Of a stretch of DNA of 64,000 nt, positions 465-63,566 are shown piece by piece. The DNA comes from an uncultured Gemmatimonadaceae bacterium. Its GTDB lineage: Bacteria; Gemmatimonadota; Gemmatimonadetes; Gemmatimonadales; Gemmatimonadaceae. A program made the translations under genes and the position numbers. The stretch lies in assembly GCA_963829055.1 (NCBI GenBank), contig CAWHHI010000020.1:672001-736000 (forward strand), in the 5' to 3' direction. Below the pieces are notes generated by a model. The model did not search any database. It saw only the letters and a list, made by a program, of their open reading frames with translations, and was not told where the DNA came from. Positions within the stretch are counted from its first letter, which is position 1; each line of letters starts with the position of its first letter.

Positions 465-474
465 GGATCCGACG

Positions 475-1734
475 TTAGGCGATCGCCGGCGCGGCTTCGG
501 CGTGGAGATCGGCCGCCGTGTGATACGGCAGCACGACCTCGGCCACCGTTCCACGCTCGGCCGCGCGGCGAAGCGACAGGCGCTGTTCCGGCACCGTAGA
601 GCTGCTCGAGCCGGGCACGCGTGTTACTGAGCCCGACACCGCCGCCGCTGGGCCGGTGCGCCTTGCCGTTCGCGTTAGGCGCGCCGTTGCCGTCGGCGGC
701 GATCGCCGGCATCGAGTCCCGGGCCGTTGTCGCGAACCGTGATGACGACGTCGTCGCCGACGCACCGCGCGCGCAGCTCGATCCGGCCTGCGCCCTCCAC
801 CTTGCTCACGCCGTGCATCACGGCGTTCTCGACGAGTGGCTGCAGCACGAAGTTCGGAACGAGCGCATCCATGACGTCGTCGTCGACCTGGATGTCCACA
901 TCGAGGCGCCCCTGGAAGCGGACCTGCATGATGTCGAGGTAGAGGCGAAGCAGCTCGAGCTCGCGCGACAGCGGAATCTCCTGCTCGCTCGTGCCCTCGA
1001 GCGTGACGCGAAGGAGCTCGCTCAATCGCGCGATCATGCGACGCACGCCGCGCGGGTCGCGCTCGACGAGCGACGAGACGGCGTGCAGCGTGTTGAACAG
1101 GAAGTGCGGATTGAGCTGCGCGCTGAGCACCGCGAGCCGCGCCTCGGCGAGCTGCGCCTGGAGCTGCGCGGCCTGCGCCGTCAGCCGAACGGTCTCGTCG
1201 TGCGGGCGCGATAGCGCGCAAAGATGTCGCGCGCGATGCCGGCGGCGAGCACGGCGAAGTAGACGGTGAGATCGTCGAGGAACCACAGCCGCGCAGATGC
1301 CGGTGCGCCACGTGATCGGCGGGCCGCGACGCGGTCGCTGCGGAAGATCGAGCAGCGCGTCACGCATGAAGTGGATCGCGACGTCCACGAACATCGCCGT
1401 GACGACGCCGACGCCGAGCAGGAGCAGGACGCGACCGAATCGATTCCCGCGCGGCTCGAGGCTGACGCGGCTCGCGAGCCAGAAGATCGGGACGGTCAGC
1501 ACCGCCCACAGGTAGTACTCGGCGAACGCGAGCGTGATGGGCGTCGACGACGGGAACGGCTGCTGAAACGCGGGGCCACGCGGATCGAGCAAGCGACTCG
1601 CCGCGTTGAGGACGGCGAGCACGGTCCAGAACGCGAAGATGAGCAGCAGCTCGGTGCGCTGCAGCGGAAAGCGCGACGCTGCGTCGCTCGCTCGTGGCGA
1701 GAGTGTCGGTCAGTGGAAGGGACGCGGTGGCCAC
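475..1734 (-). CDS. LytS/YehU-type sensor histidine kinase (frameshifted in assembly)
   Basis: N-terminal TM segments, AQLNPHFLFNTLHAVSSLV, VPNFVLQPLVENAVMHG, VRDNGPG and GVGLSNTRARL motifs across ORFs 675..1622 and 440..712; start approximate. Confidence 0.88.
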
Positions 1735-1826
1735 GATCAAAGGATACGCCGCTAGCTTCGAGACCGTCAGGGCGGCCAGAACGAACGGCACCGCGCGACG
1801 ATACACGGGCTGCACGCTGGGACAAC

Positions 1827-1879
1827 TGCCGACGGCTGCATGCTGCGGCCGCACGCTGCGCGCTGCTGCTATTAGCGCC
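1827..1879 (+). promoter_or_regulatory. 53-bp duplicated upstream element, copy 1 (upstream of the efflux operon)
   Basis: TGCCGACGGCTGCATGCTGCGGCCGCACGCTGC(G/C)CGCTGCTGCTATTAGCGCC, near-identical to 5597-5649; regulatory role inferred from position. Confidence 0.55.
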
Positions 1880-2103
1880 CGGTACGCCAGCGCGCTGTCG
1901 ACCCGCCGCCAGCCGTCCGCCAGTCCCGTTCCCGAGTCCCGTCAACCACCTGTACGTGCAGTTCGTTACACCCTCGTGCAACTCGGCGAAAATTCGGGCA
2001 CGCTCCAACGGGTGATCCGTATTCCTCACGACAGGAAGGCGGGTGAGATCCCGTTAGGCTCGCTACCGAATCGAGCCGCCGATCGCGACGCTGTGAGGAA
2101 CAC

Positions 2104-3528
2104 ATGACCAAGAAAACGCGTTTCGCAGTAGGAGCCATCGTGGTCGCCGTCGGGCGCTCTGGGGCTATGGATCTACCGGAACGCCGAGGCGCACGAAGCG
2201 CCGTCGTATCGCTTCGCGACCGTCACTCGCGGGAATCTCGAATCCACCGTCTCGGCCACTGGCGCGCTCAGCGCCGTGACGACGGTGCAGGTCGGCACGC
2301 AGGTGTCCGGTCAGGTCTCGCAGATCTACGTCGACTTCAACGACCACGTGAAGAAGGGGCAGCTGCTCGCGCGCATCGATCCGACGCTGCAGCAGCAGGC
2401 CGTGCTCGACGCGCAGGCCGGGCTCGTCCGAGCGCAGGCCGACCTCGAGCGCTCGAAGGCCGAGTACGATCGCAACAAGACGCTGTACGACCAGAAGGTG
2501 CTGACCGCGACCGAGTTCAACGACCGCGCAGTACAACTATACGGTCGCGCAGGCGAGCGTGAAGTCGGCGCAGGTCGCGCTCGATCGCGCGAAGCAGAAC
2601 CTCGCGCTACACCGAGATCTACGCGCCGATCGATGGCGTCGTCGTCGAGCGCAACGTCGACGTCGGCCAGACCGTCGCGGCGAGTCTCTCGGCGCCGCAG
2701 CTCTTCCTGATCGCGAACGACCTCTCGCAGATGCAGATCCTCGCGTCGGTCGACGAGAGCGACATCGGCATCGATCCACGAAGGCCAGGACGTGCGGTTC
2801 ACGGTGCAGGCGTACCCGAACCAGACGTTCACCGGGACGGTGCGGCAGGTGCGGCTGCAGTCGACGACGACCGACAACGTCGTGAACTACACGGTCGTCG
2901 TGTCGGTCGACAACCCGAAGGGCACGCTGCTGCCGGGCATGACGGCGACGGTCGAGTTCCTCACCGGCTCGGCCGAGAACGTGCTGATCGTGCCTAACGC
3001 CGCGCTGCGCTTCCGCGCCGACGCCGGAGATGATGGCGGCGGCGGGCGTGCCGACGCGACCGGCGCGCCGCGCACGGCGGCGGATTCGGTGGCGTTCGCG
3101 GCACGGCGCGACAGCCTGCGCGGGCACGCGCGGCGGCCGGCGGCACCGGCGGTGGTGCGCAGGCGCGGCGGCCAGGTGGCGCAGCGGGCGGACAGGCGGG
3201 TGCCGCGCGTGGTGGCAATGGGCGGCGGCGCGCCACGGCGCCGGTGGCGCGGCGCGGTGGTACGCGCTCGCGATCGCTCCGGCGGCCGTCGACGGGTTCG
3301 CCCAGCTCTGGTACGTCGGACGCCGAACGGCAAGCCGGCCGTGATGCGCGTTCGCACCGGACTCTCCGACGGTCAGAACACGCAGGTCATCGGCCCGGAC
3401 GTCAAGGAGGGCATGCAGGTGATCATCGGGTCGGCCGCGGCGACGACAACGACGCCGCGCCGCGACCTCGACCAGTCCGTTCCAGCAGCAGCGTCGGCCC
3501 AGGCCCTGGCGGCCCGGGAGGGTTCTGA
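2104..3528 (+). CDS. Efflux periplasmic adaptor subunit (MacA/HlyD-like), frameshifted
   Basis: TVQVGTQVSGQVSQIYVDFNDHVKKGQLLARIDP, MQILASVDESDIG, VVNYTVVVSVDNP..LLPGMTA, VRTGLSDGQ; RBS GAGG before the ATG. Confidence 0.88.
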
Positions 3529-3530
3529 TC

Positions 3531-4340
3531 ATGCCTAACGTCATCACGAACGACCCGGCGACGACGCCGGTCATCCGGATCGAGAGGCGTTCGCAAGACG
3601 TACACGATGGGCGACAACGAGGTCCACGCGCTCCGCGGCGTGGATCTCACGGCCGAGCGCGGCGAGATGATCGCGATCATGGGCACGTCGGGCTCCGGCA
3701 AGTCGACGCTGATGAACATGCTCGGCTGCCTCGACACGCCGACGGCCGGGCTCGTACTGGCTCGACGGCATCGCGCGTCGATGGCGCTGAGCCGCAACGC
3801 AGCTCGCCGACCTGCGGAACCAGAAGCTCGGCTTCGTCTTCCAGGGGTTCAACCTGCTGGCGCGCACGTCGGCGCTCGACAACGTCGAGCTGCCGCTGCT
3901 GTACGATCGCACCGGCCGCTGGAAGAACACGAAGGCGCTCGCCGCGGAAGCGCTGCGACGCGTGGGACTCGGCGATCGGCTCGATCACCAGCCGAGCGAG
4001 CTGTCGGGCGGCCAGCAGCAGCGCGTCGCGATCGCGCGCGCGCTCGTGACGCAGCCGACGCTGCTGCTCGCCGACGAGCCGACGGGAAATCTCGACAGCC
4101 ACATGACGGTCGAGATCATGTCGCTCTTTCAGGAGTTGAACGATCAGGGCATCACCATCGTGCTCGTGACGCACGAGCCGGACGTCGCGCAGTACGCGAA
4201 GCGCATCGTCGAGGTGCGCGACGGACGCATCAGCGCGACCACCGTGTGACCGATCGGCACAACGCCGCGGGCGATCTGCGGGAGCTGCTGGCGACCGAGC
4301 CCGAGGAAGACGACGCGGAGCTCGTGGCCGAGGAGGCCGC

Positions 4341-5717: not shown

Positions 5718-7117
5718 ATGACGACACGACATCTCGCACTAATACTTTTCGTCGGCGCCACGCCTGTACTCGGGGCGCAGACGCGCCCCGCCGCGACCAC
5801 GGCCACGACCTCGTCGCTGAGCGCGCAGACCGGCGGGCAGACGCAGACCATCACGTTCGACGACGCGATCCGCATCGCGCTCCAGCAGAACACGACGCTC
5901 GAGCAGGCGAACAACACGGCCGCGCTCAATGCCGCCAACGTTAGGCAGCAGCGGCTGTCGTTCCTGCCCGACCTTCGTCTGACCACGAACACCGGACAGA
6001 ACTACGGGCGCAGCTTCAGCGAGGAAGAAGGCCGCATCATCGATCAGACGACGCAGTCGCTGACCGCCGGCGTCTCGTCCAGCGTGACGTTGTTCAACGG
6101 GCTCACGAACGTCGCCAACCTGCGCAGTGCACAGCTCACGCAGGAGGCCGGCGATCGCAACGTGAAGCGCGCGGAGCAGACGGTCGCGTTCACCGTCGCG
6201 TCGAACTTCCTGGCGATCGTCCAGCAGCAGGAGCAGCTGCGCGTGCAGCGCGAGAACCTCGCCGCGCAGGAGGCGCAGGAGAAGCAGATCAAGGCGTTCG
6301 TCAACGCCGGCTCGCGCCCGATCTCCGATCTGTATCAGCAGCAGGCGACGGTCGCGGCGGCGCGTACACAGCTCGTGTCCGCGGAGCGCGCGCTGGAGCT
6401 CGCGAAGGTCGACGTGATTCAGACGCTGCAGCTCGATCCGCGCGGCAACTACACGTTCGCGCCACCGGCACTGGATACGACGACGGCCAACAAGGTCAGC
6501 TTCATCTCTCGACAGCCTGTTGACGCGCGCGCTCGGGCCGTCGTACCGACCTGTTCGCGCAGCAGTCGCTGGTGAGCGCGGCCGGACAGGGCGTGAGGGC
6601 GGCGAAGGGCAGCCGGTGGCCAGCGCTTTCGCTGACGGCCGGCTACAACTCGGCCTACAACAGCGCGACGAACATCGCGTTCAACGATCAGCTGAATCAG
6701 CGCCGAGGCGGTTCGCTGGGGCTCGGGTTGTCGATTCCATTGTTCGACCGTGGTTCGACGGACCTCGCGACGCAGCGCGCGCAGATCAATGAGGAGAATG
6801 CGCGACTCGAGCTCAAGAACCGTCAGCAGCAGATCGGGCTCGAGGTGCGTCGCGCGTATCTCGACTATCAGGCGGCGGTACAGCAGCTGGACGCGGCGGA
6901 AGCGCAACTTCGCGCGGCGGCACTCGCGCTCCAGACATCGCAGCAGCGGTACAACGTCGGCGCGGCGACGCTGCTCGAAGTGACGCAGGCGCGTGCGACA
7001 CAGCTGCAGGCGGCGAGCGGTCTCGTCACGGCGCGTTATGGCCTGCTGTTCCAGCGCACGCTGATCGGGTACTACGTCGGCGACCTCGACCCGAGGAACG
7101 TGACGATCGGCGGGTAG
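5718..7117 (+). CDS. TolC-family outer membrane efflux protein (frameshift near 6510-6560)
   Basis: Signal peptide, two helical OEP repeats, LGLSIPLFD, RYNVGAATLLEV; follows the MacAB-like genes. Confidence 0.88.
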
Positions 7118-7925: not shown

Positions 7926-8705
7926 CGGAGACACCCGATCTCGCTTCGCCCGCCGCACGGCCCGCCCGCATCGAGTGGCGCGCGGCGACGGTCGCCGACG
8001 TGATCGTCGAGACGCCTCACGCGAAGACACTCGTGCTGAATGTACCCGGCTGGCCGGGCCATGCCGCCGGCCAGCACGTCGACGTTAGGCTGACGTCCGA
8101 GGACGGGTACCAGGCGCAGCGCAGCTACTCGATCGCGTCGGAGCCGACGCGGGCGACGCTGTCGATCACGATCGAGCGGTTGGACGACGGCGAGGTGTCG
8201 CCGTACCTGACGGACGCGTTAGGCGTCGGCGACAAGCTGGAGCTTCGCGGGCCGATCGGCGGGTATTTCGTGTGGGACCCGACGCTGGCGGGCCCGCTGT
8301 TTCTCGTGGCGGGCGGCTCGGGGATCGTCCCGCTCATGGCGATGCTCCGGACGCGCGCGGCGGCGTCGCCCGTGAGCCGTGCGGCCGCACCGGCGACGCT
8401 GTTGTACTCGTCGCGTGGCTGGGAGGACGTGATCTACCGCGAGGAGCTCGCGGGTCTAGCGAGTGACCCGGGCGTCCGCGTGATCCACACGCTCACGCGA
8501 TCGCAGCCTCCCGGCTGGACGGGCTTCAGCCGCCGCATCGACGCCGACATGCTCACCGAGGTGGCGCCAGCCCGCCTCGACGCACCCCCACATCTATGTA
8601 TGTGGGCCGACGCCGCTGGTCGAATCGGTCGCGCAGACCCTCGTGGAGCTCGGACACGAACCGGGCCGAGTGAAAACCGAGCGCTTCGGTCCGACTGGGC
8701 CTTAG
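7922..8705 (+). CDS. FNR-family FAD/NAD(P)-binding ferredoxin reductase
   Basis: GQHVDVRL, RSYSIAS, GEVS, RGPIG, AGGSGIVP, then YVCGP..KTERFG after an indel; GTG start overlaps the upstream TGA. Confidence 0.88.
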
Positions 8706-11605: not shown

Positions 11606-11681
11606 CAGCCCGACGCGCAGTTCGGTGACGGGCGCTGCCTAACGAATGATGTCCGGCGCGCCCGTTTCCTTTCACCAGAAG

Positions 11682-11753: not shown

Positions 11754-13170
11754 ATGTATCGCACAGTCGGAATCATTCTCGCCGGTGTGTTCATCACGTT
11801 CACGGCGGAGACGCCGCGGAGTCGATCGGCGATCATCGACGGCTTCGGCGGCCGCGTCATTCGGGTCGGCGCTCGCAGACGCGCCGGCGGGTCGAGCGGA
11901 CCGGCAGCAGCACAGGATGTCGCAGCGGTGCTCGGTGCCGCGCGCGGTGTGCCGCCGCTGATCTGCGCGTTCGCGGCACAGGCAGTGTGGGGTGGCGGGT
12001 GGGGTGGATACGACGCGCCCTCGTCGCCGGTCGCGTCGGAGATCGCCGACCGCATTCAGAGACATGGCGCGCGAGAAGTTCGGCGCGAGCGACGTCCGGC
12101 TGCTGATGGACAGTCTGTCGAGCACCGATCCGTGCGTGCGCGAGCTGTCCGTGCGATTGATCGGCCGTCAGCGCGATGAGAGCGTGGTGTCTGGTCTCGT
12201 CGAGCGCCTCGGTTCCCGGACGCCGGAGCTCCGCGAGGTTGCCGCGCTCGGACTCGGCTTCATCGGAGCCGAAGAGTGCCGTCGATCCGCTCGTGCGTGC
12301 GCTGCGCGATGCGACGCCGGGCGTGCGCGCGAATTCGGCGTGGGCGCTCGGGCGCATCGAGGATGGTCGCGCGCTGCGGCCGCTCGTGGATCTCTTCCGC
12401 GACGAGTCGGCGCAGGTGCGTGAGGCAGCGACCATCGCGGTCGGTCGCATGGATTCGTCGAGCGCGGTCGAGGCGCTGATCCGCGTGGTGCGCGAGGACG
12501 CGAGCGCGCAGGTGCGTCGCTCTGCCGCATGGGCGCTCGGTCAGCTCGAGGCGCGGAGCGCGGTGGACGTGTTGATCGCGGTGCTGCGCCAGGACGCGGA
12601 CGAGCGCGTGCGTGAGATGGCGGCGTGGGCGCTGGGCAGTCTGGACACGAAGGCGGCGGCGCCGGGCCTCATCGGCGCGCTCCGGCGTGACTCGAGCGAC
12701 GCGGTGCGCGAGACGGCGGCGTGGGCGTTAGGCAACGTGGAAGATCGCACGGCAGCCGACATTCTCGGCGATGCCGTTCGCAGCGACAAGAGCGCGCGCG
12801 TACGTGGCACGGCGGCGTGGGCGTTAGGCCAGCTCGATACGAAGGTGGCTCCGCGAGGCCTGATCGAGGGGCTCAGCGATCAGGAGGACGACGTGCGCAC
12901 TCAAGGCGGCGTGGGCGCTTGGCCAGATCGGAGACTCGAGCGCGGTGACCGGCGATTCAGAACGCGCTCCAAGCCGAGAAGAGTGAGCGGGCGCGGAAGG
13001 CGGAGATCCGCGCGCTGCTCGCGTCGGGCGGCCGGTCGGAGGCGATGCTGACGGAGCTGCTCAAGTCGACGGATCCGACGGTGCGTGAGTCGGCGGTTCG
13101 CGGGCTGGTGGGCAATCACTCGTTCAATCCGTGGCCGTGGCCATGGCCGAGGCCGCGTCCGTATCCGTAG
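11754..13170 (+). CDS. Probably exported HEAT-repeat protein (frameshifted)
   Basis: GGAGG RBS; hydrophobic N-terminus MYRTVGIILAGVFITFTA; about 8 D...VRxxAAWALG repeats; ends PWPWPWPRPRPYP. Confidence 0.82.
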
Positions 13171-13406: not shown

Positions 13407-15098
13407 ATGTCTCTGCGGTCCATGCGGACACCGTTCCGCCTCGTGTTCGCCGCGTGTGTCGCGGCCCTCGTTACAAGTTCGGCTGTCGACGCGCAGGCGC
13501 CGACTGTTCGGGCGCCGAGGTTCGAGGTGACCGTCGATCCGGCAACGCGCTCGACGCCACTCACGGGGCGGCTCGTGGTCGTCGTGTCGAAGGTCGCGCA
13601 GCCCGAGCCGCGGATGCTCATCGCGCCGCAGGGCGCCGGCGCTGTTCGCGATCGACCTCGAACAGCTGCGTGCCGGGCAGCCGGCGATCGTCGACACGAA
13701 GTCGCTCGGATATCCGGTGCCGCTCGCGTCGCTGCCGGCGGGCGACTACTACGCGCAGGCCATCGTGAACACGTACGAGGCCGTGAAGCGCGCGGACGGC
13801 AAGACGATCTGGGTGCACTTCAACGACGGCACGCAGGAGGTCATGCAGATCGCCGCCGGCAACGTGTACAGCGACGTGCAGAAGATCCACGTCGGCAACG
13901 GCGGCACCGTGAGGCTCCGCATCAACAAGACCATCCCGCCGAACCCGCGCCCGCAGGACACGGAGTGGGTCAAGCACGCGCGCATTCAGAGCCAGAAGCT
14001 GACGGCGTTCTGGGGACGCCCGGTGTACGTGTACGCGACGGTGCTCCTGCCGAAGGGGTACAACGAGCACCCTAACGTGAAGTATCCGACCGTCTACACG
14101 TTCGGGCACAACGTGCCGTTCAGCTTCAACCCGGACTCGACGCGCACTCGCGGGCTCGGCCAGATCAATCCGGTGACTGGGACCGAAACGGGCTACGACT
14201 TCTACAAGTCGTGGATCGCGGACGGCTTCCCGCGCTTCATCGCCGTGAGCTTCGAGCAGGCGACGCCGTGGTTCCTCGATTCCTACTCCGTGAACTCGGC
14301 GCAGAACGGACCGTACGGCGACGCGATGGAGGAGGAGATCATCCCGGCGCTCGAGAAGCAGTTCCGGATGATCGGCAAGCCGTACGCGCGGCTCGCGGAG
14401 GGTGCGTCGACGGGTGGCTGGCAGACGCTCGCGCTGCAGCTCAAGCATCCCGACTTCTTCGGCGGCGCGTGGGTGCTGCAGCCGGACCCGATCGATTTCC
14501 GGCGCTACCAGCTCGTGGACATCTACGCGGACACGAATGCGTTCCTCGTGCCGAACACGCAGTTCACGACGACCGAGCGTCCGTTCAAGCGCACGCCGGA
14601 GGGACAGGTACAGTGGACGCTGCGCCAGCTCAGCCTGTTCGAGGAGGTGCTCGGCACTCGCGGCCGGTCGAACTACCAGCTCGAGGGGTGGGAGGCGATC
14701 TACGGACCGCTCGGACGCGGACGGCTATCCGAAGCCGCTCTGGAACAAGCTCACGGGGACGATCGACAAGAGCGTCGCGAACTACATGCGCGACAACGGC
14801 TACGACCTGCGCGACTACGCGCAGAAGAACTGGGCCACGTTAGGCCCGAAGGTCGCGGGCAAGCTGCACTTCTTCGCCGGCGACATGGACGACTTCTACC
14901 TGAACCTCGCGGTCTACCGGTTCGAGGAGTTCCTCAAGAGCACGCCGGAGCGGGAAGAACGTGCCGTTCACGTACAACCGACCGATGAAGGGTCACAGCT
15001 CACACGCGATGCCGTGGGCCGAGCTCGTTAGGCAGATGGGCGCGTACGTGAAGAAGAACACGCCGGCTGGAGATGACGCGAGCGCGTGGTGGTACTAG
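13407..15098 (+). CDS. Secreted putative esterase (alpha/beta hydrolase)
   Basis: Signal peptide, DSYSVNSAQNGPYGDA, nucleophile elbow GASTGG, GDMDDFYL; contains indels. Confidence 0.75.
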
Positions 15099-29625: not shown

Positions 29626-29629
29626 CGGC

Positions 29630-40767: not shown

Positions 40768-40782
40768 AATCGTTAGGCGGCT

Positions 40783-50726: not shown

Positions 50727-50937
50727 TGTTTCGGCCTAACGTGAATGAGGCAGCGGACGCATGTCATCTGCGGGTGAAACACCTGGCGTCCGGCAAACCC
50801 TTACTGATCGAGCTGGAAAATGGCAGCAAACGATCGAGTAGGGGTACTTCGCGCCTCGCGTGTTTCTGGCAATGTCCACGTCGGTGGCGAAGCGCGAACG
50901 GTTCGCGCAACCCACCGGCCATTTCCGGAGCAACGTC

Positions 50938-54130: not shown

Positions 54131-56874
54131 CGGTACGCGCGGCCGCTCCCGCGACGCGGGACACCCTCGTCGCGCGACGTCTCGTCGCGTCGATTCGCAA
54201 TTCGCGCGCTCTCGCCTCGCGCTATCCGCGCGTCGCCGCCAACGCCCAGTCGACCTGTTCGGCGACCGCCGCTCCATCCCGTGCGGCGCGGCATCGAAGC
54301 ATTGGCCCGCGCCACTCGACCGACAGGTCACGCTCGAGGGCGACCACGTCACCCTGCGCGACGGCCTAACGCGCCTCGCCTCCGCCGCCCGCGTTAGGCT
54401 CTCGTACGTGGCCGAGCTGCTGCCGCTCGACCGTTCGCTGTGTCTGGCGTACAGGTCGGTGGCGGTCGGTGACGTGCTCTCCGACCTGCTGCGCGGCACG
54501 GAGCTCGAGCCCGTCGTGGCGGGAGACGATCAGGTCGTGCTCGCCCCGGCGCGACGCACGGCGTCGACGGAGCGTTCGACGATGATGACACCGACGCGCG
54601 GCGAACGAGCGTGCTCGATCGCGTGGTCGTCATCGGCGACGACGTCGCGACAACGCCAGCGGTCCGTGCCGATCTCGCTCGACGTCGTGAGCGGCGACAA
54701 GCTGGCCCGTCAGGAGGACAACGGCTCGCTGACGCACCTGCTCGACGGCTCCGTGCCCGGCATGTGGATGTGGCAGCAGGCGCCGACGACACTGCTCGCG
54801 CGCTACGGCAGCATCCGCGGCGCGAGCTCGTTCGGGCTCAGCTACCCGAAGATCTACATCGACGGCATCGAGGTCGCGAACCCGCTGATCGTCCGGCAGT
54901 TCGACCCGTCGACGATCGAACGCGTCGAGGTGATTCGCGGTCCGCAGGGCTCGGCGCTGTACGGCGCGGACGCGAACAGTGGCGTCATCAACATCATCAC
55001 GCGTCACGACGGCGCCGGCCGCCGGCGGCCAGCGCCTCGCAGCTGCAGAGCACCGCGGGCGTGTCGGGCAGCCAGTTCGCGCCGCAGGGCGTGCTCACGC
55101 AGCAGCACGCGCTCGCGTTCCGCACCGGGACCGCCGAGCGCTCCGCGGGACTCGGCTTGAGCATGAGCACGTTAGGCGCCTACGTACCCGGTGCGTTCGC
55201 CCGAACGATCGCCGCGAACGGCGACCTGCGCGTCGTCGGCGCGCGCAGCGTGTTCACCGGCATCGCGCGCGCTGTTCACGCGAGCGCGCGGGGACGCCCG
55301 CGAATCCGCTGCTGCCGCGGGCTCGCCGGGGCTCGGCAGCCGGTGGCGACTACCAACACTACCGACAGCGGATCGATCGCCGCGGCGATCCACCGGCGTA
55401 CTCGCGTGCGGGAATGGACGACACGACGCACGGCGCCGCTGTCAGCTCGCAGACCGCCCCGTCGTTCTCGACCGATTCGAGCGCGACGCAGTCGGTGAGC
55501 CAGTACACGGTCGGCGGCAACGCTCGTCGTGCACGCCTAACGACCGCTGGACGCACACGTTCGTGCTCGGCGTCGATGGCTATCGCCTGGCGAATCCGGC
55601 GCTGGACGACGGTCCGATCCCGAGCGCGACGGATTCCGCCCTGGCGGCGGCGCGGGGCGGCGGCGATCGCGTCACCGCTCGCGTGACGAGCGCGGCACAC
55701 TTCGGCTCGGTCGGTCGCGCGGCGACGGTGCTGACGTTCACGGCCGAGCACTGCGGCCGTTCGCGAGGAGAGCGCGGTCCGTCTCCATGGTCGGCCAGGG
55801 CGGCGACTACGGTGACGCGTCCTGGTGAGGCCGACGAGCGAGCGTCGGAAGCGCGGCTCATCGGGTGGCGTGGCAACACGGGCCTGGTTGCGCAGGCGAA
55901 CACGTCACTGCCGCAACCGACTGTTCCTGACCGCCGGCCTGCGCCTCGAGCGCGACGACGCGCTGGTCGGGTCGACGCACGTGACAGCTCGCTCCCCATG
56001 CTCGGCGGGGCGCTCGTCGACGGATCGTGGCGACGTGACGCTCAAGCTGCGTGCGGCGTACGGCAAGGGCGATTCGCCCCGTGCAGGGCGCGATTCGCGA
56101 GCTCGCGTGGAGCGGGCGACGCGCGACGCTCGTCGCGTACGATCTCGCGCCGGAGCAGCAGGCAGGCGTCGAGGCGGGCGCGGATCTGTTCGTCGGACGC
56201 AACGTTGGCTTCCACGTGACGCGCTTCGATCAGCAGGCGACCGGGCTGATTCAATCGGTGCGCGGTCACGATGCCGGCGCGCTCGCTCGTCGCGTGGCCC
56301 GCGGTTCGACGAACGAGCCTACGGCAACAGGGAAGCGACGTCGCGTACCAGTTGCAGAACGTCGGCGCGATCGCGAATCGCGGCTGGGAGCTTCAGAGCA
56401 CCGTCGGCGTTCGGGCGTCTGTCGCTCTCGAGCGCGCTCTCGCTCGTGGATAGCCGAGTGCAGCGGCTGGCGTCGGGGTACACGGGTGATCTGCGGCCGG
56501 GCGACCGGATGCTCGACGTGCCCGCGCGGACGGCGAGCGTCAGCGGCTCGTGGACGGCGGCGCGGTGGTTCGCGATCGCTGACGCTCGCGCGGGCGGCCG
56601 ACTGGACGGGCTACGATCGCGTGGCCATCGCGAAGGCCCTGACGAGTGGTGGCCTCATGCCGCGCGACCTGGTCGGTGAGCGGCTGCGCAGCTACTGGCG
56701 CGAGTACGACGGCGTGACGCGCGTACGCGCGAACTTCACCCGGGATCTTGTTCCGCGGCCTCTCGCTCGTGCTCGACCGGCGACAACCTGCTCGGCCAGC
56801 AGCGCGGCGAGCCGGACAACGCGACGATCGTTCCGGGCCGTACGGTAACGGCCGGGATCAAAGCGAAGTTCTGA
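54127..56874 (+). CDS. TonB-dependent receptor with STN-like domain, paralog 2 (many indels)
   Basis: LLDGSVPGMWMW, SIRGASSFGLSYPKIYIDGIEVAN, LQNVGAIANRGWEL, GDRMLDVP, terminal AKF; collinear with 46520..49102. Confidence 0.82.
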
Positions 56875-57261: not shown

Positions 57262-59022
57262 TTACGCCTGCTGCGTCACGCGCGTCTCGCGCACTTCCGC
57301 CAGATACTGATGCACGAACGCGATCGCCATGCTCCCTTCGCCCACGCTCGACGCAACGCGCTTGATCGAGCCGTGACTCACGTCGCCCGCGGCGAAGATG
57401 CCAGGCACGCTCGTCTCCAGCAGATACGGATCGCGCTCGAGCGGCCACGTGCCCACGGCGCGGTCCGCGCAGGAGATCCATCACGTCGCGGCCGGCACAC
57501 ACGTAGCCCCACTCGTCGCGAATCAGCTTCTCGCGGCAGCCAGTCCGTTTCGGCGTGCGCGCCGATGAACACGAACAGCGCGTCGCTCTCCCGCCGCTCT
57601 CGCCGACGCGACGGACCGGTCGCGACCTCGATGGCCTCGAGACGATCAGTGCCCTCGACCGCGAGACCTCGGCTTGCGTCTCGATGGTGACGTTCGCCTT
57701 CGCCTCCAGCTGCGTCGATGAGGTACTGCGACATGCTCGCCGCGAGCGACGGACCGCGCACCAGCATCGTCACGGACTCGGCGTAGCTCGCGAGACTTGC
57801 AGTCGCCGCCTGGCCCGCGGAGTTGCCGCCGCCGATCAGATGGACGCGACATCCGCGAACGCCGCGAGCGCCTCCAGTGACGCCGCACCGTAGTAGACGC
57901 CGTGCCCGGTCAACCGGTGATGCCCGGCGTGTCGAGCCGGCGCCATTGCACGCCGCTCGCCATCACCACGGCTTTTGTCGTTAGGCGCGAGCCATCGTCG
58001 AGCACGATCGTGTGCGCCGCCGTCTTCAGCTGACGTCGGGTCACCAGGCTCGATCGAGACGACGGAGCGCGCGACGAGCAGCTCGGCGTCGAAGCGCTAG
58101 CGCCTGCTGTACGCGCGCGCGCTCAGCTCGTCGCCCGACAACCCGCCCGGGAAGCCGAGGTAGTTCTCGATGCGCGAGGAGGTGCCGGCCTGGCCGCCAC
58201 ACGCCGTTTGTCTCGACGAGCAGCGTGCAGAGTCCTTCGGATGCGCCGTAGACCGCGGCGGCGAGCCCCGCCGGCCCGCCGCCCACGATGACGACGTCGT
58301 ACGCATTGCGCGTCGGCGTCGTCTGAAGCCCGAGCGCGTCGGCGAGCGCCGCGGAACGACGGCGCTTCCAAACGAGTGCCGTCGGCAGAGTAGCACGAGC
58401 GGCAGGGCTGTTCCCGCGAAGGCGGTCGCGGCGGCGTCCGCCGACGGGAGAATCCCATCGAAGACGAGCCGGTTCACGGCGTCCGCATCGTCGAGATCGC
58501 GCCACGCGAACAGCATCCGATTGCGCGCGAGGAACTCGCGCAGCTCGAGGCACGTCACGTCCGACTGACGGCCGATCAACGTGGCCGCGGTCATCGGAGT
58601 GTTCGCCGACGACTTGCTGCAGCTTCCCGACCCGCGTCTCCATCGTCTTCATGATCTCCGCATTCAACACTCGGCAGTGCGAGATGAGATCGTGGAAGTC
58701 GGCTGGATCGAGTCGCATAACGCGGGCGGGCTCGAGGGCCCGGACGCTCGCGACCGCTGGGGACGCGAGCAGCAGCGGCACCTCGCCGAAGTACTCGCCC
58801 GGCTCGTAGGTCGCGAGCTGCTGGTCGTGGCCGCCGATGTTCTTGTGGAGTGCGAGACGACCTTCGAGGAGACCGAAGAACGCGGGAGTCTGGCCTTCGA
58901 GGATCAGCCATTCGTTCTGGTGCAGCCGCACGTCCGCGGCGCGGCGCGGCGAGGGACGCGAGCTCGTTGGGGGGAATGCGAGCGAACAGCGGAATGCGCG
59001 TGAGCAGTTCGGCGGTGATCAT
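57262..59022 (-). CDS. Thioredoxin reductase-like FAD oxidoreductase with N-terminal cyclic-nucleotide-binding domain (frameshifted)
   Basis: PGEYFGEVPLL; VGGGPAGLAAAVYGASEGL; GGQAGTSSRIENYLGFP; LETSVPGIFAAGDV..GSIKRVASSVGEG. Confidence 0.85.
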
Positions 59023-59886: not shown

Positions 59887-60408
59887 ATGTACCGCAAACT
59901 GATCGCGACCAACTCCGACCTCGGCGCCCTCGCCGGTCGTGTCATGCTCGGCGCCATCATGCTCCCGCATGGATTCCAGCACGCCCTCGGCTTGTTCGGC
60001 GGCTACGGCTTCAGCGGCACGCTCGGATGGATGACGAAGACGTTAGGCTTCCCCGCCCCGCTCGCGGCCGTCGCGATCGCCACCGAGCTCATCGCGCCGT
60101 TCGCGTTGATCTTCGGGCTCGGCGGCCGGCTCGCCTCCCTCGGCATCATCGGGATCATGGCGGGCGCGATCAGCACGCACGCGCCTAACGGGTTCTTCAT
60201 GAACTGGTTCGGCAGCCTTCCCGCGGGCACCGAAGGGTTCGAGTACCATCTGCTCGCGATTGGGCTCGGCGCCGTCATCGTCGCGAACGGGAGCGGTGCG
60301 CTGTCGATCGACCGCCTGCTCACCACCCGTTGGGCAGAGCGCAAGTCCGCTGGTGTGTCCGGTTCGACTCCGCGGACACGTCTCGAAGGTGACCGCAGAG
60401 TCGCGTAG
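59887..60408 (+). CDS. DoxX-family membrane protein
   Basis: RVMLGAIMLPHG.Q..LG.FGGYG, NGFFMNW, EGFEYHLL. Confidence 0.9.
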   Translation: MYRKLIATNSDLGALAGRVMLGAIMLPHGFQHALGLFGGYGFSGTLGWMTKTLGFPAPLAAVAIATELIAPFALIFGLGGRLASLGIIGIMAGAISTHAPNGFFMNWFGSLPAGTEGFEYHLLAIGLGAVIVANGSGALSIDRLLTTRWAERKSAGVSGSTPRTRLEGDRRVA

Positions 60409-60465: not shown

Positions 60466-60843
60466 ATGACCGCAACGTCCACGAAACAGAACGTCCTCGG
60501 CCTCATCAAGCTCGTTGAAGCTGGCCGGATGCTCGATGCGATGACCACGTACTACGCGCCCGACATCGCGATGCAGGAGAACGTCTCACCGCCGACGGTG
60601 GGCTTCACGGAGAACTACGCGCGTGAAGCGGCGTTTTACGGCTCGCTCGAGGCGCTCAAATTCAACCTCGTCTCGGTGCTCGTCGAAGGTGACGTCGCGG
60701 TGATCAACTGGGTGTTCGACTACACGACGGCGGACGGCAAGCAGTATCGGATGGACGAGATCGCCGTGCAGACGTGGCGCGGCGGGAAGGTCATCCACGA
60801 GCGCTACATTTACGACACGGCATCACTCGCCGTTGCCGCCTGA
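60466..60843 (+). CDS. SnoaL-like/NTF2-fold protein
   Basis: YYAPDIAMQEN, DEIAVQTWRGGKVIHERYIY; GGAG RBS. Confidence 0.85.
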   Translation: MTATSTKQNVLGLIKLVEAGRMLDAMTTYYAPDIAMQENVSPPTVGFTENYAREAAFYGSLEALKFNLVSVLVEGDVAVINWVFDYTTADGKQYRMDEIAVQTWRGGKVIHERYIYDTASLAVAA

Positions 60844-60912
60844 CGCCGCATGTCTGCCACTCGACCAACGTCTGCCGCGCGCGCTCCTCTCGAGCGTGCG
60901 CGGCGCGCTTTC

Positions 60913-61698
60913 ATGAGACGCGTGGAACATCAGAGCCTTCTGTTCATCTACGCCCACCCGGACGACGAGAGCTTTCTCTCCGCCGGCACGATCACGCACT
61001 ACAGGCGTCTCGCGAACACGCGCATCGCGCTCGTCACGGCAACGCGCGGCGGCGCGGCCACGCGGCCGCCTGACGCCGATTGGATGCGCGAAGATCTCGA
61101 GGCGTTGCGCGCGAAGGAGATGGACGCCGCGTCGCAGATTCTTGGCATTCATCACACGGCGCTCCTCACGCACCCGGACCGCGGGCTCGCGACGTCGGAT
61201 CATGAGCTGATTCGCCGAGAGCTCGTGTCGGCGATTCGGCTGCACAGGCCGCAGGTCGTGGTCACGTTCGATCCGAATGGCCAGAACCTGCACGCGGATC
61301 ACATCGCGATCAGTCGTTATACGAGCGATGCGGTAGCCGCGGCGTCAGACGCGCGATGGCTACCGGAGACCGGACCGGCGCACGTGGTTCAGCGCCTTCT
61401 CTGGACGACGCCCGTTACGGTGTGGGACGCGTTGCGCGCGCCATTGCGCGTCCCGCTCGCCGAGCGACCCGGCGTCGACTTTCTGATCGACACGTCGGCC
61501 TACGTCGCCGAGAAGGAAGCGGCCCTGCGCGCGCATGTCACGCAGCGCCCGGGCATCGATCGCCTGCTGCTCGCCACGGGCGACCGCGAGGCGGCACTGA
61601 GCGTGGAGGCATATCGACTCGGCTGGGGACCAGCGCCGCGTGCTCGACCTGCTGGGTGTCTGTTCGAGGGCCTCCAGATCGGTGCGCCGGATGCCTAA
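60913..61698 (+). CDS. PIG-L/LmbE-family deacetylase
   Basis: AHPDDES, TATRG, PQVVVTFDP, HADH, ALRAHVTQ. Confidence 0.88.
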   Translation: MRRVEHQSLLFIYAHPDDESFLSAGTITHYRRLANTRIALVTATRGGAATRPPDADWMREDLEALRAKEMDAASQILGIHHTALLTHPDRGLATSDHELIRRELVSAIRLHRPQVVVTFDPNGQNLHADHIAISRYTSDAVAAASDARWLPETGPAHVVQRLLWTTPVTVWDALRAPLRVPLAERPGVDFLIDTSAYVAEKEAALRAHVTQRPGIDRLLLATGDREAALSVEAYRLGWGPAPRARPAGCLFEGLQIGAPDA

Positions 61699-61795
61699 CG
61701 CCCGTGTCCGACACCAAGGACGAAGGGTTATGAACGGATGCCTCTGATCCAAAGCATCCGCTCGCCCCATTGTCTGAGATGCCGGCGCGAGGCCA

Positions 61796-63566
61796 TTACT
61801 GTTGGCAACTCCCGCGCGGATTCGGCTTCGGCTTATCGACCACGACGCGGTGGTCGAGATTCCCGACCTGCTCGGCGATCCCGTACACGAGCTTCCCGAC
61901 CTGCTTCCATGCGATTGTAGTCGATGTACTGCGGCTCGTCCGTCACCTGGTGGTAGTCCGCGTGGCCACCCGTGGTGAAGAAGATGATCGGGATCCCGTA
62001 GCGCGCATACATGTAGTGATCGCTGCGGCAGTAGATGTTCTGTGGATGGCCGTTGGCGTCGAGCGAGTAGTCGAACTTGAGCGTGCCGCCCTGCGCGCTG
62101 TTCACCGTCTCCGCGAGGTCGCCAAGCTCCGTCGAGAGACGCCGCGAGCCGATGAGCTGCAGGTAGCCAGGGCCGCCGTGAATCGGCGCGCCGGCCTTTG
62201 TCACTCCCGTGAAGTCGTTCGCGCCGCCGCGTCCCACCATGTCGATGTTGAGCTGCGCCACGATCGAGTCGCGCGGGACCGTCGGGTGATCCGTGAAGTA
62301 CGAGGAGCCGAGGAGGCCGAGCTCTTCGCCGGTGTGCCAGACGAAGAGCAGTGAGCGCTTCGGCTTCACTCGCGCATTGGCGAACGCCTCGGCGATCTCG
62401 AGCACCGTCGTCGTGCCGGAGCCATCGTCATCGGCACCGTTGTAGATCGAGTCGCGGCGCGCGGCGTGCGTCGCCCGCAGACTGTCGGCCACTCGGTGGA
62501 TACGCGCCCAGTCGGCCTGGGCAACCGGCGTCTCCTCGTTGTCCGCACCCTGCGGACGCGCGATCAGCTGGTACGCCTTCACGGAGTCGTGGTCGGCCGG
62601 CTCGTTGTTGAAGCCGACGTGATCGTTGTGCGCGCCGATGGCGACGTACTGACCGCGCAGGGCGGGATCCGATCCGGGAATGATGGCGACGACGTTCCGT
62701 GCTGGCGCGTCCTTCGCGACGAAGCGAATCTGTCCACTTATCTTGCCGCCCTCAGCTCCCGGCTCTGCCGTCGCCGCGTCCCGGCCAAGCATCGCTCGCG
62801 CGACCGCTTTCGTCACATAGAAATAGTTAGGCAGCGGCCGTGATTCTCCGGCTCCTTTCGGAAGCGACCGCGGGGACACGGAAGAACTGGTCGACGTAGC
62901 CCGCCGGTAGATCATCGAGCGTCACGACAGCGATCGCCACCGCATTCGGAAAGTGCACCGAGAGCTGGTTGCGATTCACGTTGAAGTTGGGGCGCCCGGC
63001 GCTGTCCTTCCCGATCGTGAGCAGCACGACCTTTCCCGACGACTGACGCCGGCGGTACGACGCGCTGCGGGATCGCCGAGTGATCCGCCGTAGACGACGG
63101 TCGCGCCGTCGAACGCTTGCGCTCCGGCACCTTGATCGCGAGGCGCGAACTCCGTCCAGAGCTTGAGGGCCCGTCCGCCGACCGTGATGGTGGTCGACGG
63201 GTCGATCTCACGCTGTTCGAGCGGGAACTGGAAGTAGGTGCCGTTCTCACCGGCGGGCTGGAGCCCCATTCGCTTGAGCTCGCGCTCGATGTAGAGTGCG
63301 CCCTTCGCGTTGTACGGCGTATCCGCGGCGCGGCCCATCATCGAGTCGTCGGCAATGATGTAGAGGCGCGTCATCATGTCCGCTGCGACGATCGCTGGGC
63401 GCGTCGCGGGCCCGGCGTACTTGAGCGGCAGCATGCTCGGTACGGCGGCCGCGGCAGCGTTAGGCGCCGGCGCCTCGCGCGTCGCGGTCGATGCCGAGGA
63501 GCACGCGCCGAGGAGCGACGTGGCGGCGGTACTGAGTCCACCAATGACGAACGCTAAACGTCTCAC
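61796..63566 (-). CDS. M28-family peptidase lipoprotein (frameshifted)
   Basis: LGAC; GAHNDHVG, NGADDDGSG, TGEELGLLGS, NIDMVG, RSDH, DYHQVTD. Confidence 0.88.

What the first reader, a model, noticed from the sequence alone, without database searches (positions are those of the whole stretch)
473..63464. Strongly over-represented non-palindromic heptamer CCTAACG/CGTTAGG embedded in genes across the whole window
SEEN: counting by eye I find about 52 exact copies, usually as GCCTAACG. About 27 read CGTTAGG and about 25 read CCTAACG on the + strand. Examples: 473, 673, 2052, 2993, 3534, 5939, 8083, 8217, 11638, 12726, 12822, 14071, 14838, 22901, 27589, 33367, 38491, 42038, 45637, 54365, 54392, 60041, 60184, 61694, 63458. 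Base composition alone (~69% GC) predicts roughly 7. Most copies lie inside CDS and use several frames through codons that are rare here: GCG-TTA-GGC (A-L-G at 12726 and 12822, where sibling HEAT repeats use CTC/CTG/CTT), GTT-AGG (V-R in the conserved DVRL at 8083), GGC-CTA-ACG (38491), CCT-AAC (3534), and stop codons (473, 29629, 61694). INFERENCE: protein constraint cannot explain this, so it is a DNA-level signal. One miscalled base is also unlikely: DVRL needs AGG/CGG and WALG needs TTA/TTG, and only A fits both. KNOWN analogues: DNA uptake sequences (Neisseria, Pasteurellaceae) and cyanobacterial HIP1. Chi and KOPS are strand-polarised and this motif is not. I know of no description of this motif; candidates are an uptake sequence, a methyltransferase/repair-driven site or a nucleoid-protein site.
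Basis: partly seen in the sequence, partly recalled or inferred. Interest (0 to 1): 0.9.

Follow-up and report, generated by a model that had tools for sequence, protein, structure and literature searches.

The report
Genome-wide DNA word matching integron core
This soil bacterium has written one eight-letter DNA word about once per kilobase through its genes, evenly spaced and against its own codon habits, much like the tags some bacteria use to recognise their own DNA, and the word is spelled like the crossover site of its gene-cassette system.

Summary
The genome, a Gemmatimonadaceae MAG, holds 6391 copies, and a codon-preserving null gives 2483 observed against 180 expected. It is not a base-calling artefact: short-read assemblies of relatives and contigs from four independent public runs carry the word.

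What I add:
- Occupied sites repel each other: 32 adjacent pairs under 100 nt against 173 expected, in either orientation.
- The word is kept in place between species 2.5 to 3 times more often than an average 7-mer.
- At least two separate clades carry the identical word, with no dialects.
- G000 has no hit to three main DNA-methylase families or to Vsr. Its two methylase-like genes also occur in word-poor relatives.
- The word equals one arm of this order's integron attC sites, but IntI presence does not track word richness.

Best reading (about 0.4): a DNA-uptake-sequence-like self tag, possibly seeded by the attC arm. This scan found the same word before on other Gemmatimonadaceae DNA. I found no published description.

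The parts
473..479 (-). word copy (8-mer form CGTTAGGC on +)
   Evidence: 8-mer and frame; frame not called, at a gene end
673..679 (-). word copy (8-mer form)
   Evidence: frame not called
2052..2058 (-). word copy (8-mer form)
   Evidence: frame not called
2993..2999 (+). word copy (8-mer), read CCT-AAC-G (Pro-Asn)
3534..3540 (+). word copy (8-mer)
   Evidence: frame not called, gene end 3538
5939..5945 (-). word copy (8-mer), read NNC-GTT-AGG (Val-Arg) in OEP gene
8083..8089 (-). word copy (8-mer), read GTT-AGG (Val-Arg)
8217..8223 (-). word copy (8-mer), read NCG-TTA-GG (Leu-Gly)
11638..11644 (+). word copy (8-mer)
   Evidence: frame not called
12726..12732 (-). word copy (8-mer), NCG-TTA-GG in HEAT-repeat gene
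12822..12828 (-). word copy (8-mer), NCG-TTA-GG in HEAT-repeat gene
14071..14077 (+). word copy (7-mer only), CCT-AAC-G
14838..14844 (-). word copy (8-mer), NCG-TTA-GG
15026..15032 (-). word copy (8-mer)
   Evidence: frame not called
16534..16540 (+). word copy (8-mer), antisense GTT-AGG
17211..17217 (+). word copy (7-mer only)
   Evidence: frame not called
18048..18054 (-). word copy (8-mer)
   Evidence: frame not called
19716..19722 (+). word copy (8-mer), antisense NCG-TTA-GG
20497..20503 (+). word copy (7-mer only), antisense NCG-TTA-GG
20804..20810 (+). word copy (8-mer), antisense NCG-TTA-GG
21771..21777 (-). word copy (7-mer only), CCT-AAC-G on the - strand gene
22255..22261 (-). word copy (8-mer), CCT-AAC-G
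22901..22907 (+). word copy (8-mer), antisense NCG-TTA-GG
24582..24588 (-). word copy (7-mer only), CCT-AAC-G
27589..27595 (+). word copy (8-mer)
   Evidence: frame not called
27921..27927 (-). word copy (8-mer), CCT-AAC-G in M28 peptidase gene
29090..29096 (+). word copy (8-mer), antisense NCG-TTA-GG
29629..29635 (+). word copy (8-mer) overlapping a - strand stop codon (TAG)
31217..31223 (+). word copy (8-mer), antisense GTT-AGG
33367..33373 (+). word copy (8-mer)
   Evidence: frame not called
34104..34110 (-). word copy (7-mer only), CCT-AAC-G in TonB-dependent receptor gene
35264..35270 (+). word copy (8-mer); strain differences at 35259 and 35272 flank it but leave it intact
38491..38497 (+). 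word copy (8-mer), NNC-CTA-ACG (Leu-Thr) in amidohydrolase gene
40050..40056 (-). word copy (8-mer), CCT-AAC-G
40771..40777 (-). word copy (8-mer) at the edge of a palindromic repeat element
41611..41617 (-). word copy (8-mer), NNC-CTA-ACG
42038..42044 (+). word copy (7-mer only), antisense NCG-TTA-GG
43549..43555 (+). word copy (7-mer only), antisense NCG-TTA-GG
44491..44497 (-). word copy (8-mer), NNC-CTA-ACG
45637..45643 (-). word copy (8-mer), NNC-CTA-ACG
46408..46414 (-). word copy (8-mer)
   Evidence: frame not called
49692..49698 (+). word copy (8-mer)
   Evidence: frame not called
50735..50741 (+). word copy (8-mer)
   Evidence: frame not called
54365..54371 (+). word copy (8-mer), first of a convergent pair 27 nt apart
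54392..54398 (-). word copy (8-mer), second of the convergent pair
55170..55176 (-). word copy (8-mer), NCG-TTA-GG
55536..55542 (+). word copy (8-mer)
   Evidence: frame not called
57979..57985 (-). word copy (8-mer)
   Evidence: frame not called
60041..60047 (-). word copy (8-mer), NCG-TTA-GG in DoxX gene
60184..60190 (+). word copy (8-mer), CCT-AAC-G in DoxX gene
61694..61700 (+). word copy (8-mer) supplying the TAA stop of the PIG-L gene (60850-61698)
63458..63464 (-). word copy (8-mer), CCT-AAC-G

Best explanation
GCCTAACG/CGTTAGGC is a real, lineage-specific 'self word' of some Gemmatimonadaceae. It arises by point changes inside ordinary genes. It is then kept by a fixation bias, either molecular drive or selection, that acts on double-stranded DNA, ignores orientation, and saturates once a stretch of roughly 0.3 to 1 kb already holds a copy.

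The mechanism I think most likely is that of DNA uptake sequences. A surface or periplasmic part of the type IV pilus/ComEA/ComEC uptake route binds the word. Fragments of kin DNA that carry it are then taken up and recombined more often, and this bias spreads and maintains the word.

The same reader may also enrich incoming DNA for gene cassettes.

Shown here: the abundance, the override of codon usage, conservation in place, even spacing, lineage restriction, identity with the attC arm, and presence of the uptake genes. Inferred: uptake bias, the existence of a reader, and the link to cassette capture.
For: (1) Density and symmetry. There is one copy per 1.2 kb, with both strands equal in the window, the genome and 100-kb bins.

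(2) The word overrides codon usage. 2483 copies are observed against 180 expected under synonymous shuffling. 711 of 1118 Pro-Asn-[VADEG] tripeptides and 1017 of 3183 [ASPT]-Leu-Gly tripeptides are written with it. The dipeptide Pro-Asn itself occurs 1921 times against 1428 expected.

(3) Interference between sites. Of 16,527 synonymous potential sites, 2483 are occupied. Adjacent occupied pairs within a gene number 32 under 100 nt against 173 +/- 12 in 500 permutations (lowest 145). The counts are 106 against 324 under 200 nt and 431 against 637 under 500 nt. Genome-wide gaps run 0.25x Poisson under 50 bp and 1.3x at 500 to 1000 bp, whatever the relative orientation. A 167-kb sample of G014 shows the same: 13 gaps under 100 nt against 38.6 expected.

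(4) Maintenance. Against three congeners at 75-79% DNA identity, 52-66% of the words of either genome stand at the same place (34% for G000's words against the word-poorer G004). Only 18-23% of all aligned 7-mer windows are identical.

(5) Lineage restriction. 10 of 31 near relatives hold the word at more than twice the control word. So do 16 of 401 genomes of the phylum, all in two families of one order (13 of 94 and 3 of 166) and 0 of 141 in ten other families.

(6) Uptake genes are present in G000. These are ComEC, a ComEA-type HHH_3 hit, and a PilQ(AMIN)-PilO-PilN-PilM cluster with two PilA-like pilins.

(7) All replicons of a complete relative (G300) carry the word alike, including a roughly 15-kb integrative element: 0.57 to 0.85 per kb.

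(8) The attC arm is identical to the word. A published abstract reports that natural transformation delivers single-stranded DNA from which a chromosomal integron recruits cassettes (PMC12614218, abstract read).
Against: - No uptake experiment exists, and I know of no report of natural competence in this phylum. The search listed none.
- ComEC, ComEA-like genes and the pilus-associated 340-aa protein occur in word-poor relatives as well (31 of 31, 31 of 31 and 30 of 31). The machinery therefore does not explain who has the word.
- No ComP_DUS-family receptor scores over the cut-off in 5 genomes searched.
- Unlike the Neisseriaceae DUS, there are no dialects. The identical word is the top 7- and 8-mer in samples of G014, G001, G004, G005 and G010. 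It also stands in two clades that a single-gene tree separates.
- There is no excess of inverted pairs of the terminator type. At 50-200 nt, 75 pairs are convergent and 80 divergent.
- Even spacing would also suit a chromosome-organising protein.
Confidence: 0.4

Rival explanations
1. The word is the binding site of an abundant chromosomal DNA-binding protein, such as a nucleoid-associated protein, a loader, or a domesticated recombinase-type domain. Selection keeps one site per roughly 0.5 to 1 kb for chromosome organisation.
For: Spacing is even and independent of orientation. Density is equal on all replicons of G300. The word is conserved in place. The same word without dialects would fit a conserved protein.
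Against: I know of no nucleoid protein that needs an exact 8-bp word thousands of times (recalled, not tested). Close relatives do without the word entirely, including one genome (G289) in an otherwise rich genus. No candidate protein was found.
Confidence: 0.2
2. The word works through the integron integrase or a related tyrosine recombinase. Dispersed double-stranded copies of the attC R box would serve as docking or secondary recombination sites for cassettes.
For: The word equals the attC arm in G021, G019, G029, G000 and G300. Integrons are common in the order: IntI scores over the cut-off in 18 of 31 genomes. G000 has an IntI gene (C20:208041-208958) with attC-like sites beside it.
Against: - IntI does not track the word. 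It is intact in many word-poor genomes, including G289 with three hits.
- It was not found in the word-rich G002, G004 and G397, and it is frameshifted in G014. These genomes are 84-95% complete, so absence is not proven.
- Published genomic insertion sites need only GWT (10.1101/2022.09.11.507474, passages read).
- Dispersed copies have no partner arm and no conserved flanks.
- Thousands of sites inside genes would be a liability.
Confidence: 0.12
3. The word is driven by methylation and repair, in the manner proposed for HIP1. An orphan methyltransferase marks the word and a short-patch repair system converts near-matches to it.
For: The one-off neighbours of the word are mostly depleted, at 0.3 to 0.7 of the order-2 expectation.
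Against: - G000 (86% complete) has no hit to PF01555, PF02384, PF00145 or Vsr PF03852.
- Its Eco57I/MmeI-like gene, together with an SNF2 gene, has counterparts in 18 of 18 family genomes, rich and poor.
- Its D12-class gene family is found in 13 of 31 genomes. These include six word-poor ones but not the richest genome, G014.
- A site-autonomous repair bias does not predict interference between neighbouring sites.
- Other methylase families and the base modifications themselves were not examined.
Confidence: 0.05
4. The word is a Chi-like signal that tells a helicase-nuclease to stop degrading self DNA.
For: It is a short lineage-specific word that marks self DNA, with regular spacing.
Against: There is no strand polarity with respect to GC skew; bins run near 50:50. 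The enrichment is far above what I recall for known Chi sites. RecC was not found in 0 of 31 genomes. AddAB and AdnAB were not searched.
Confidence: 0.05
5. The word is an artefact of base calling or assembly in this one long-read-like assembly.
For: The window has several split genes that suggest indel errors.
Against: The same word appears in 6 other genomes of the genus and in other genera, and in MAG contigs named k141_/NODE_. Contigs of four independent runs match the window at about 99%, with no listed difference inside any of the 14 word sites laid. No single-base neighbour of the word is depleted enough to be its source.
Confidence: 0.01

Closest known systems
DNA uptake sequences: DUS of Neisseriaceae (receptor: minor pilin ComP) and USS of Pasteurellaceae
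   Same: A short non-palindromic word at about one per kb on both strands. It sits mostly inside genes in tolerated frames, is conserved among related species and is missing from other relatives. Type IV pilus, ComEA and ComEC genes are present. That USS are evenly spaced and that their density is about one per kb are recalled.
   Different: Uptake bias is untested. No ComP-family protein was found. There are no dialects among lineages. There is no excess of inverted pairs. The phylum is not known to be competent. The word coincides with an integron attC arm.
HIP1 of cyanobacteria (highly iterated palindrome, linked in the literature to methyltransferases; recalled)
   Same: An 8-letter word at about one per kb, written into genes against codon usage, with an unknown function.
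   Different: The word here is not a palindrome. No cognate methyltransferase candidate tracks it.
Integron attC core and inverse core (R' GTTRRRY, R'' RYYYAAC; consensus recalled)
   Same: The 7-letter core is identical, and in this order the 8-letter word is one attC arm. The TAA inside the word often serves as a stop codon: 191 of 585 TAA stops.
   Different: The dispersed copies have no second arm, no hairpin and no conserved flanks. They lie at synonymous positions of conserved genes. They do not depend on IntI being found.
Chi and KOPS
   Same: Lineage-specific, over-represented short words read on DNA.
   Different: Those are strand-polarised with replication and far less enriched (recalled). 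Here there is no polarity, and RecC was not found.

Membership tests
DNA uptake sequence (DUS/USS) | Word-bearing DNA is taken up or transforms better than DNA without it | not testable with these tools
   Needs a competition assay in a cultured word-rich strain.
DNA uptake sequence (DUS/USS) | Hyper-abundant short word, about one per kb, on both strands alike | tested here: met
   6391 copies in 7.78 Mb. The 8-mer occurs 5004 times against 102-297 expected. Strand counts are 2457 forward and 2547 reverse.
DNA uptake sequence (DUS/USS) | Written into coding sequence beyond what amino acids and codon usage give | tested here: met
   2483 observed against 180 under synonymous shuffling. 64% of Pro-Asn-x tripeptides are occupied.
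DNA uptake sequence (DUS/USS) | More evenly spaced than chance | tested here: met
   32 adjacent pairs under 100 nt against 173 expected. Gaps under 50 bp run at 0.25x Poisson.
DNA uptake sequence (DUS/USS) | A cognate receptor (ComP family in Neisseriaceae) | tested here: not met
   PF16732 gives no hit over the cut-off in G000, G236, G289, G300 or G014. Another kind of receptor is not excluded.
DNA uptake sequence (DUS/USS) | Competence machinery encoded | tested here: met
   ComEC in 31 of 31 and HHH_3 (ComEA-type) in 31 of 31 genomes; a PilMNOQ plus pilin cluster in G000. These are also present in word-poor genomes.
DNA uptake sequence (DUS/USS) | Dialects that differ between related lineages (Neisseriaceae) | tested here: not met
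   The same top 7- and 8-mer appears in samples of five word-bearing genomes from three genera.
Integron attC site | Two imperfectly complementary arms (R''-L'' ... L'-R') forming a hairpin of about 60-140 nt | tested here: not met
   The feature is met for the arrays in G021, G019, G029, G300 and beside IntI in G000. It is not met for the dispersed copies: flanks are flat, and convergent pairs at 50-200 nt number 75 against 80 divergent.
Integron attC site | Core spelled GTTRRRY/RYYYAAC | tested here: met
   GTTAGGC/GCCTAAC fits the recalled consensus and equals the local attC arms.
HIP1-like methylation-linked word | A methyltransferase whose presence tracks the word | tested here: not met
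   G000 has no PF01555, PF02384 or PF00145 hit. The Eco57I-like and D12 genes also occur in word-poor genomes, and D12 is not found in rich G014.
Chi / KOPS | Orientation bias with the direction of replication | tested here: not met
   57 bins of 100 kb run near 50:50; rho with GC skew is -0.27.
REP / MITE repeat | Conserved sequence beyond the core, with copies as units | tested here: not met
   Only position -1 (G, 78%) and weak preferences at -2, +7 and +8 stand out. The flanks show only codon periodicity.

The most novel reading that the evidence does not exclude
Some Gemmatimonadaceae have tuned a DNA-recognition step, most likely DNA uptake, to the crossover arm of their own integron attC sites. 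Molecular drive then wrote that arm through the whole genome, independently in at least two clades. If so, natural transformation and integron cassette capture are coupled by one 8-letter word: the cell preferentially imports kin DNA and any cassette array of its order.
Probability: 0.2. Interest if true: 0.9.

Novelty: new variant of a known kind. Interest (0 to 1): 0.8.

Why it matters
If the word is an uptake or self-recognition tag, three things would follow.
- It would be the first such system outside Neisseriaceae and Pasteurellaceae that I know of, and it would sit in a widespread soil phylum.
- It would show a tag that shares its spelling with the integron recombination core, linking two routes of gene acquisition.
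- The same word reappearing in separate clades, at graded densities from 0.03 to 1.6 per kb, would offer a natural series for studying how such tags arise.

The word also has a practical use as a barcode. In this MAG it exposes three word-free contig ends that look like chimeric joins. A complete, word-rich relative (G300) makes the question testable at the bench.

Tried and rejected
- **Maximal-order Markov ranking.** It does not flag the 7-mer, because the sub-words are themselves specific to it. Lower orders were used instead.
- **My gene finder.** It covers only 68-78% of the genome. Frame statistics therefore use a local classifier, which called 3674 of 6391 sites. Codon tests use 3138 confident genes with the first fifth of each gene dropped.
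- **Rfam on two cassette arrays.** 0 matches.
- **First attC script.** It found nothing because of my own filter and was rewritten.
- **Reader hunt.**
  - IntI shows no tracking with the word.
  - The ComP_DUS family gives nothing over the cut-off.
  - ComEC and ComEA are universal.
  - The 340-aa pilus-cluster protein is found in 30 of 31 genomes.
  - For the 171-aa pilin, the C-terminal part is found only in three congeners.
  - For methylases and Vsr, no family tracks the word.
  - RecC is found in 0 of 31 genomes.
- **Word-free 'deserts' as acquired islands.** Rejected. They lie at contig ends and hold housekeeping genes that have a second copy at about 50% identity elsewhere. Chimeric or contaminant DNA is more likely.
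- **tRNA-Pro(AGG) as an adaptation to CCT codons.** Rejected. The aragorn call is a 92-nt false positive.
- **Reads laid on the window.** Only 40 of 608 differences are listed. This supports that the word sites are real but gives no power for a polymorphism test.
- **Not run.** Complex prediction, structure prediction and the protein atlas, because no candidate reader justified them.

Full report
**Observation.**
Dinucleotide-preserving shuffles give 2.56 (sd 1.58, largest 7; 0 of 100 reach 52). 44 of the 52 have the 8-letter form GCCTAACG.
- The window is G000:C20:672001-736000 of a 7.78-Mb, 20-contig assembly at 66.7% G+C. The assembly is 85.9% complete.
- Contig titles of the closest relatives place it in the Gemmatimonadaceae. 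The window's genes are ordinary chromosomal genes.
- The whole genome holds 6391 copies, at 0.64 to 1.09 per kb on every contig.
- GCCTAACG occurs 5004 times against 297, 131, 102 and 258 expected under Markov orders 0 to 3. 72% of all CTAA tetramers in the genome (6391 of 8933) lie in the word.
- A maximal-order Markov model does not flag the 7-mer, because its sub-words are almost private to it.
- The flanks carry no longer repeat. Only G at -1 (78%) and mild preferences at -2, +7 (C 41%, A 28%) and +8 stand out, over a three-base periodicity that reflects coding frames.

**It is imposed on coding sequence.**
- A local frame classifier gave a confident call for 3674 of the 6391 sites. Of these, 1491 read NCG-TTA-GG, 1076 CCT-AAC-G, 682 NNC-CTA-ACG and 420 NNC-GTT-AGG, and 5 fall in the two frames that contain a stop. 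Sense and antisense orientations are about equally used.
- Shuffling synonymous codons within each of 3138 confident genes keeps amino acids and each gene's codon usage. It gives 180 copies on average against 2483 observed.
- 1017 of 1632 TTA codons are in the word.
- 711 of 1118 Pro-Asn-[VADEG] tripeptides and 1017 of 3183 [ASPT]-Leu-Gly tripeptides are spelled with it. The dipeptide Pro-Asn is itself over-represented, 1921 against 1428.
- 191 of 585 TAA stops and 135 of 1190 TAG stops lie in the word, so 326 of 4470 genes end in it.
- The tRNAs for TTA, CTA and AGG are present. A predicted tRNA-Pro(AGG) is a false positive.

**It is not an artefact.**
- However, all six other genomes of the genus hold 2501 to 5112 copies of the 8-mer, and a genome of another genus (G014) holds 6360 in 5.1 Mb. 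Most of the family holds fewer copies than of the reversed control word.
- Word-rich loci include MAG contigs named k141_ and NODE_. I take these names to indicate short-read assemblers.
- The same species is found in 20 public runs of 15 studies from rhizosphere, soil and sediment.
- Contigs from four of these runs match window 23001-43000 at about 99%. None of the 40 best-supported differences (of 608) falls in any of the 14 word sites. Two differences flank the copy at 35264-35270 and leave it intact.
- No single-base neighbour of the word is depleted enough to be its miscalled source.

**Evolution.**
- I aligned 151, 78 and 79 kb of three congeners (G001, G005, G004; 75-79% DNA identity) to G000. 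52-66% of words stand at the same place in both genomes. The figure is 34% for G000's words against G004, which has about half the density. Only 18-23% of all aligned 7-mer windows are identical.
- Where one genome lacks the word, it mostly has the ordinary codons (CCGAACG, CCGAGCG, CCTGACG).
- In a survey of 401 genomes of the phylum, 16 hold the word at more than twice the control. These are 13 of 94 in the window's family and 3 of 166 in a second family of the same order, with 0 of 141 in ten other families.
- The tallies include the unpublished genomes G013, G079, G118 and G199.
- Densities are graded. In samples they are 1.61 per kb in G014, 0.5-0.9 in the genus, 0.21 in G010, 0.18 in G030, 0.03 in G018 and 0-0.01 in G007 and G008.
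- There are no dialects. The same word is the top 7- and 8-mer in G014, G001, G004, G005 and G010.
- On a tree of the aminotransferase at window 26064-27269, word-rich loci form two well-supported clades, each with a word-poor sister. All 200 bootstrap trees need at least two changes. This is one gene, and one that also occurs in Burkholderiales MAGs.
- One genus holds three rich genomes and one poor one, G289.

**Spacing.** This is the main new result.
- I took the 16,527 places in confident genes where the word could be written synonymously and permuted which of them are occupied within each tripeptide class.
- Adjacent occupied pairs in the same gene number 32 under 100 nt against 173 +/- 12 (lowest of 500 permutations: 145). 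The counts are 106 against 324 under 200 nt, 208 against 452 under 300 nt, and 431 against 637 under 500 nt.
- Genes with no word and genes with four or more words are both fewer than expected.
- Genome-wide gaps are 0.25x Poisson under 50 bp, 0.55x at 100-200 bp, 1.3x at 500-1000 bp and 0.85x above 2 kb. Same and opposite orientations are equally frequent at every distance.
- A 167-kb sample of G014 shows the same pattern: 13 gaps under 100 nt against 38.6 expected.
- A copy therefore loses its value when another lies within a few hundred bases. This means the signal is read per stretch of DNA rather than per site. It fits a tag on fragments (uptake) or a regularly spaced protein site. It does not fit a site-autonomous mutation or repair bias.

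**The integron connection.**
- In word-poor relatives the few matches cluster on single contigs, on one strand, every 500-650 bp.
- These are integron cassette arrays. The attC sites are about 90-135 nt long. One arm reads GCCTAACA and the other CGTTAGGC (G021, G019, G029).
- The word is therefore one arm of the local attC. Its 7-letter core fits the integron core and inverse-core consensus, which I recall from the literature rather than from a call.
- In the rich genomes G000 and G300, both attC arms read CTAACG/CGTTAG. This looks as if the genome-wide process has also acted on the attC sites.
- IntI (TIGR02249) is common in the order, over the cut-off in 18 of 31 genomes, but does not track the word. 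It is intact in many poor genomes. It barely passes in G000 (265.7 bits). It was not found in rich G002 and G004, and it is frameshifted in rich G014.
- In the contrasting genus, the poor G289 has three hits while the rich G397 has none. All of these are incomplete MAGs, so absence is not proven.
- Dispersed copies have no second arm.
- Published genomic insertion sites of integron cassettes need only GWT (10.1101/2022.09.11.507474, passages read).
- A 2025 paper reports that natural transformation supplies single-stranded DNA from which a chromosomal integron excises and recruits cassettes (PMC12614218, abstract read). That gives a rationale for an uptake tag spelled like an attC arm, but no evidence that this happens here.

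**Search for a reader.**
- G000 encodes ComEC, a ComEA-type hit (truncated frame) and a type IV pilus cluster. The cluster holds PilQ with an AMIN domain, PilO, PilN, PilM, two unknown proteins and two PilA-like pilins.
- ComEC and ComEA-type genes are in 31 of 31 relatives, and the 340-aa pilus-cluster protein family is in 30 of 31.
- For a lone 171-aa pilin, the specific C-terminal part is found only in three congeners.
- No ComP_DUS-family hit passes the cut-off in 5 genomes.
- G000 has no hit to PF01555, PF02384, PF00145 or Vsr.
- Its Eco57I/MmeI-like gene next to an SNF2 helicase gene (C8:73494-78314, frameshifted in G000) has counterparts in 18 of 18 family genomes.
- Its D12-class gene family is in 13 of 31 genomes, among them six word-poor ones, and is not found in G014.
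- RecC was found in 0 of 31 genomes.

**Verdict.**
- The word is real and is maintained by a force acting on DNA. By every computable criterion but two (dialects and a ComP-type receptor) it behaves like a DNA uptake sequence.
- I put about 0.4 on an uptake-type self tag, 0.2 on a chromosomal protein site, 0.12 on an integrase-related function and 0.05 each on Chi-like and methylation-driven readings. Most of the remainder goes to something not yet imagined.
- I found no description in five literature searches.
- The scan's own earlier notes report the same word on other Gemmatimonadaceae genomes, with the same closest analogue and the same open question. The lead to the integron core came from those notes, and I checked it myself.

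Noticed in passing
G000:C6:5440-55038, G000:C6:591808-623330, G000:C11:1-44055 (outside the window): Three word-free stretches of 31-50 kb lie at contig ends. They hold housekeeping genes (FtsK, chorismate synthase, DAHP synthase, Trp genes, leucyl aminopeptidase) that have a second copy at about 47-56% identity elsewhere in the assembly. These are probably chimeric joins or contaminant DNA, which the word exposes.
   Followed up: partly
window 40770-40950 and 30380-30500: Two families of palindromic, MITE-like intergenic repeats, with ends spelled TGTCATTCCGAGCG... and TGTCATCCCGAGCG.... They give 426 and 304 blastn hits in G000, many hits in congeners, and very high contig depth in metagenomes. 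They explain the other top-ranked k-mers.
   Followed up: partly
window 5718-7117, 19076-20705, 31746-35289: Genes split into two adjacent or overlapping frames (OEP efflux protein, ABC permease, TonB-dependent receptor). With only 20 contigs at 86% completeness, this suggests indel errors of a long-read assembly.
   Followed up: no
G000:C20:188000-209000 (outside the window): G000's own integron. The IntI gene lies at 208041-208958 (-) and only just passes the family cut-off (265.7 bits). At least 9 attC-like sites lie on its 3' side.
   Followed up: partly
L001 (G021:C95:1-20000), L003, L004 against L103, L154: In word-poor genomes the base next to the attC R box is A on one arm and C on the other. 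That gives G.T in one folded strand and A.C in the other. In the word-rich G000 and G300 it is a G-C pair on both.
   Followed up: no
L160 (G300:C4, 20,952 bases): The contig repeats itself after about 15.0 kb, so it is a roughly 15-kb circular element assembled with overlap. It encodes a phage-type integrase and a DUF5906 protein and is as word-rich (0.85 per kb) as the chromosome.
   Followed up: partly
G000:C8:73494-78314 and counterparts in 18 of 18 family genomes: A conserved pair (fragmented in G000) of a roughly 1080-aa Eco57I/MmeI-like methylase protein and a roughly 950-aa SNF2 helicase, of unknown role.
   Followed up: partly
G289 against G236, G293, G397: One genome of an otherwise word-rich genus is word-poor (66 copies against 3479-4141).
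   Followed up: partly
window 23001-33000: The species, or strains about 99% identical, occurs in 20 public runs of 15 studies from rhizosphere, soil and freshwater sediment, 2017-2025.
   Followed up: no
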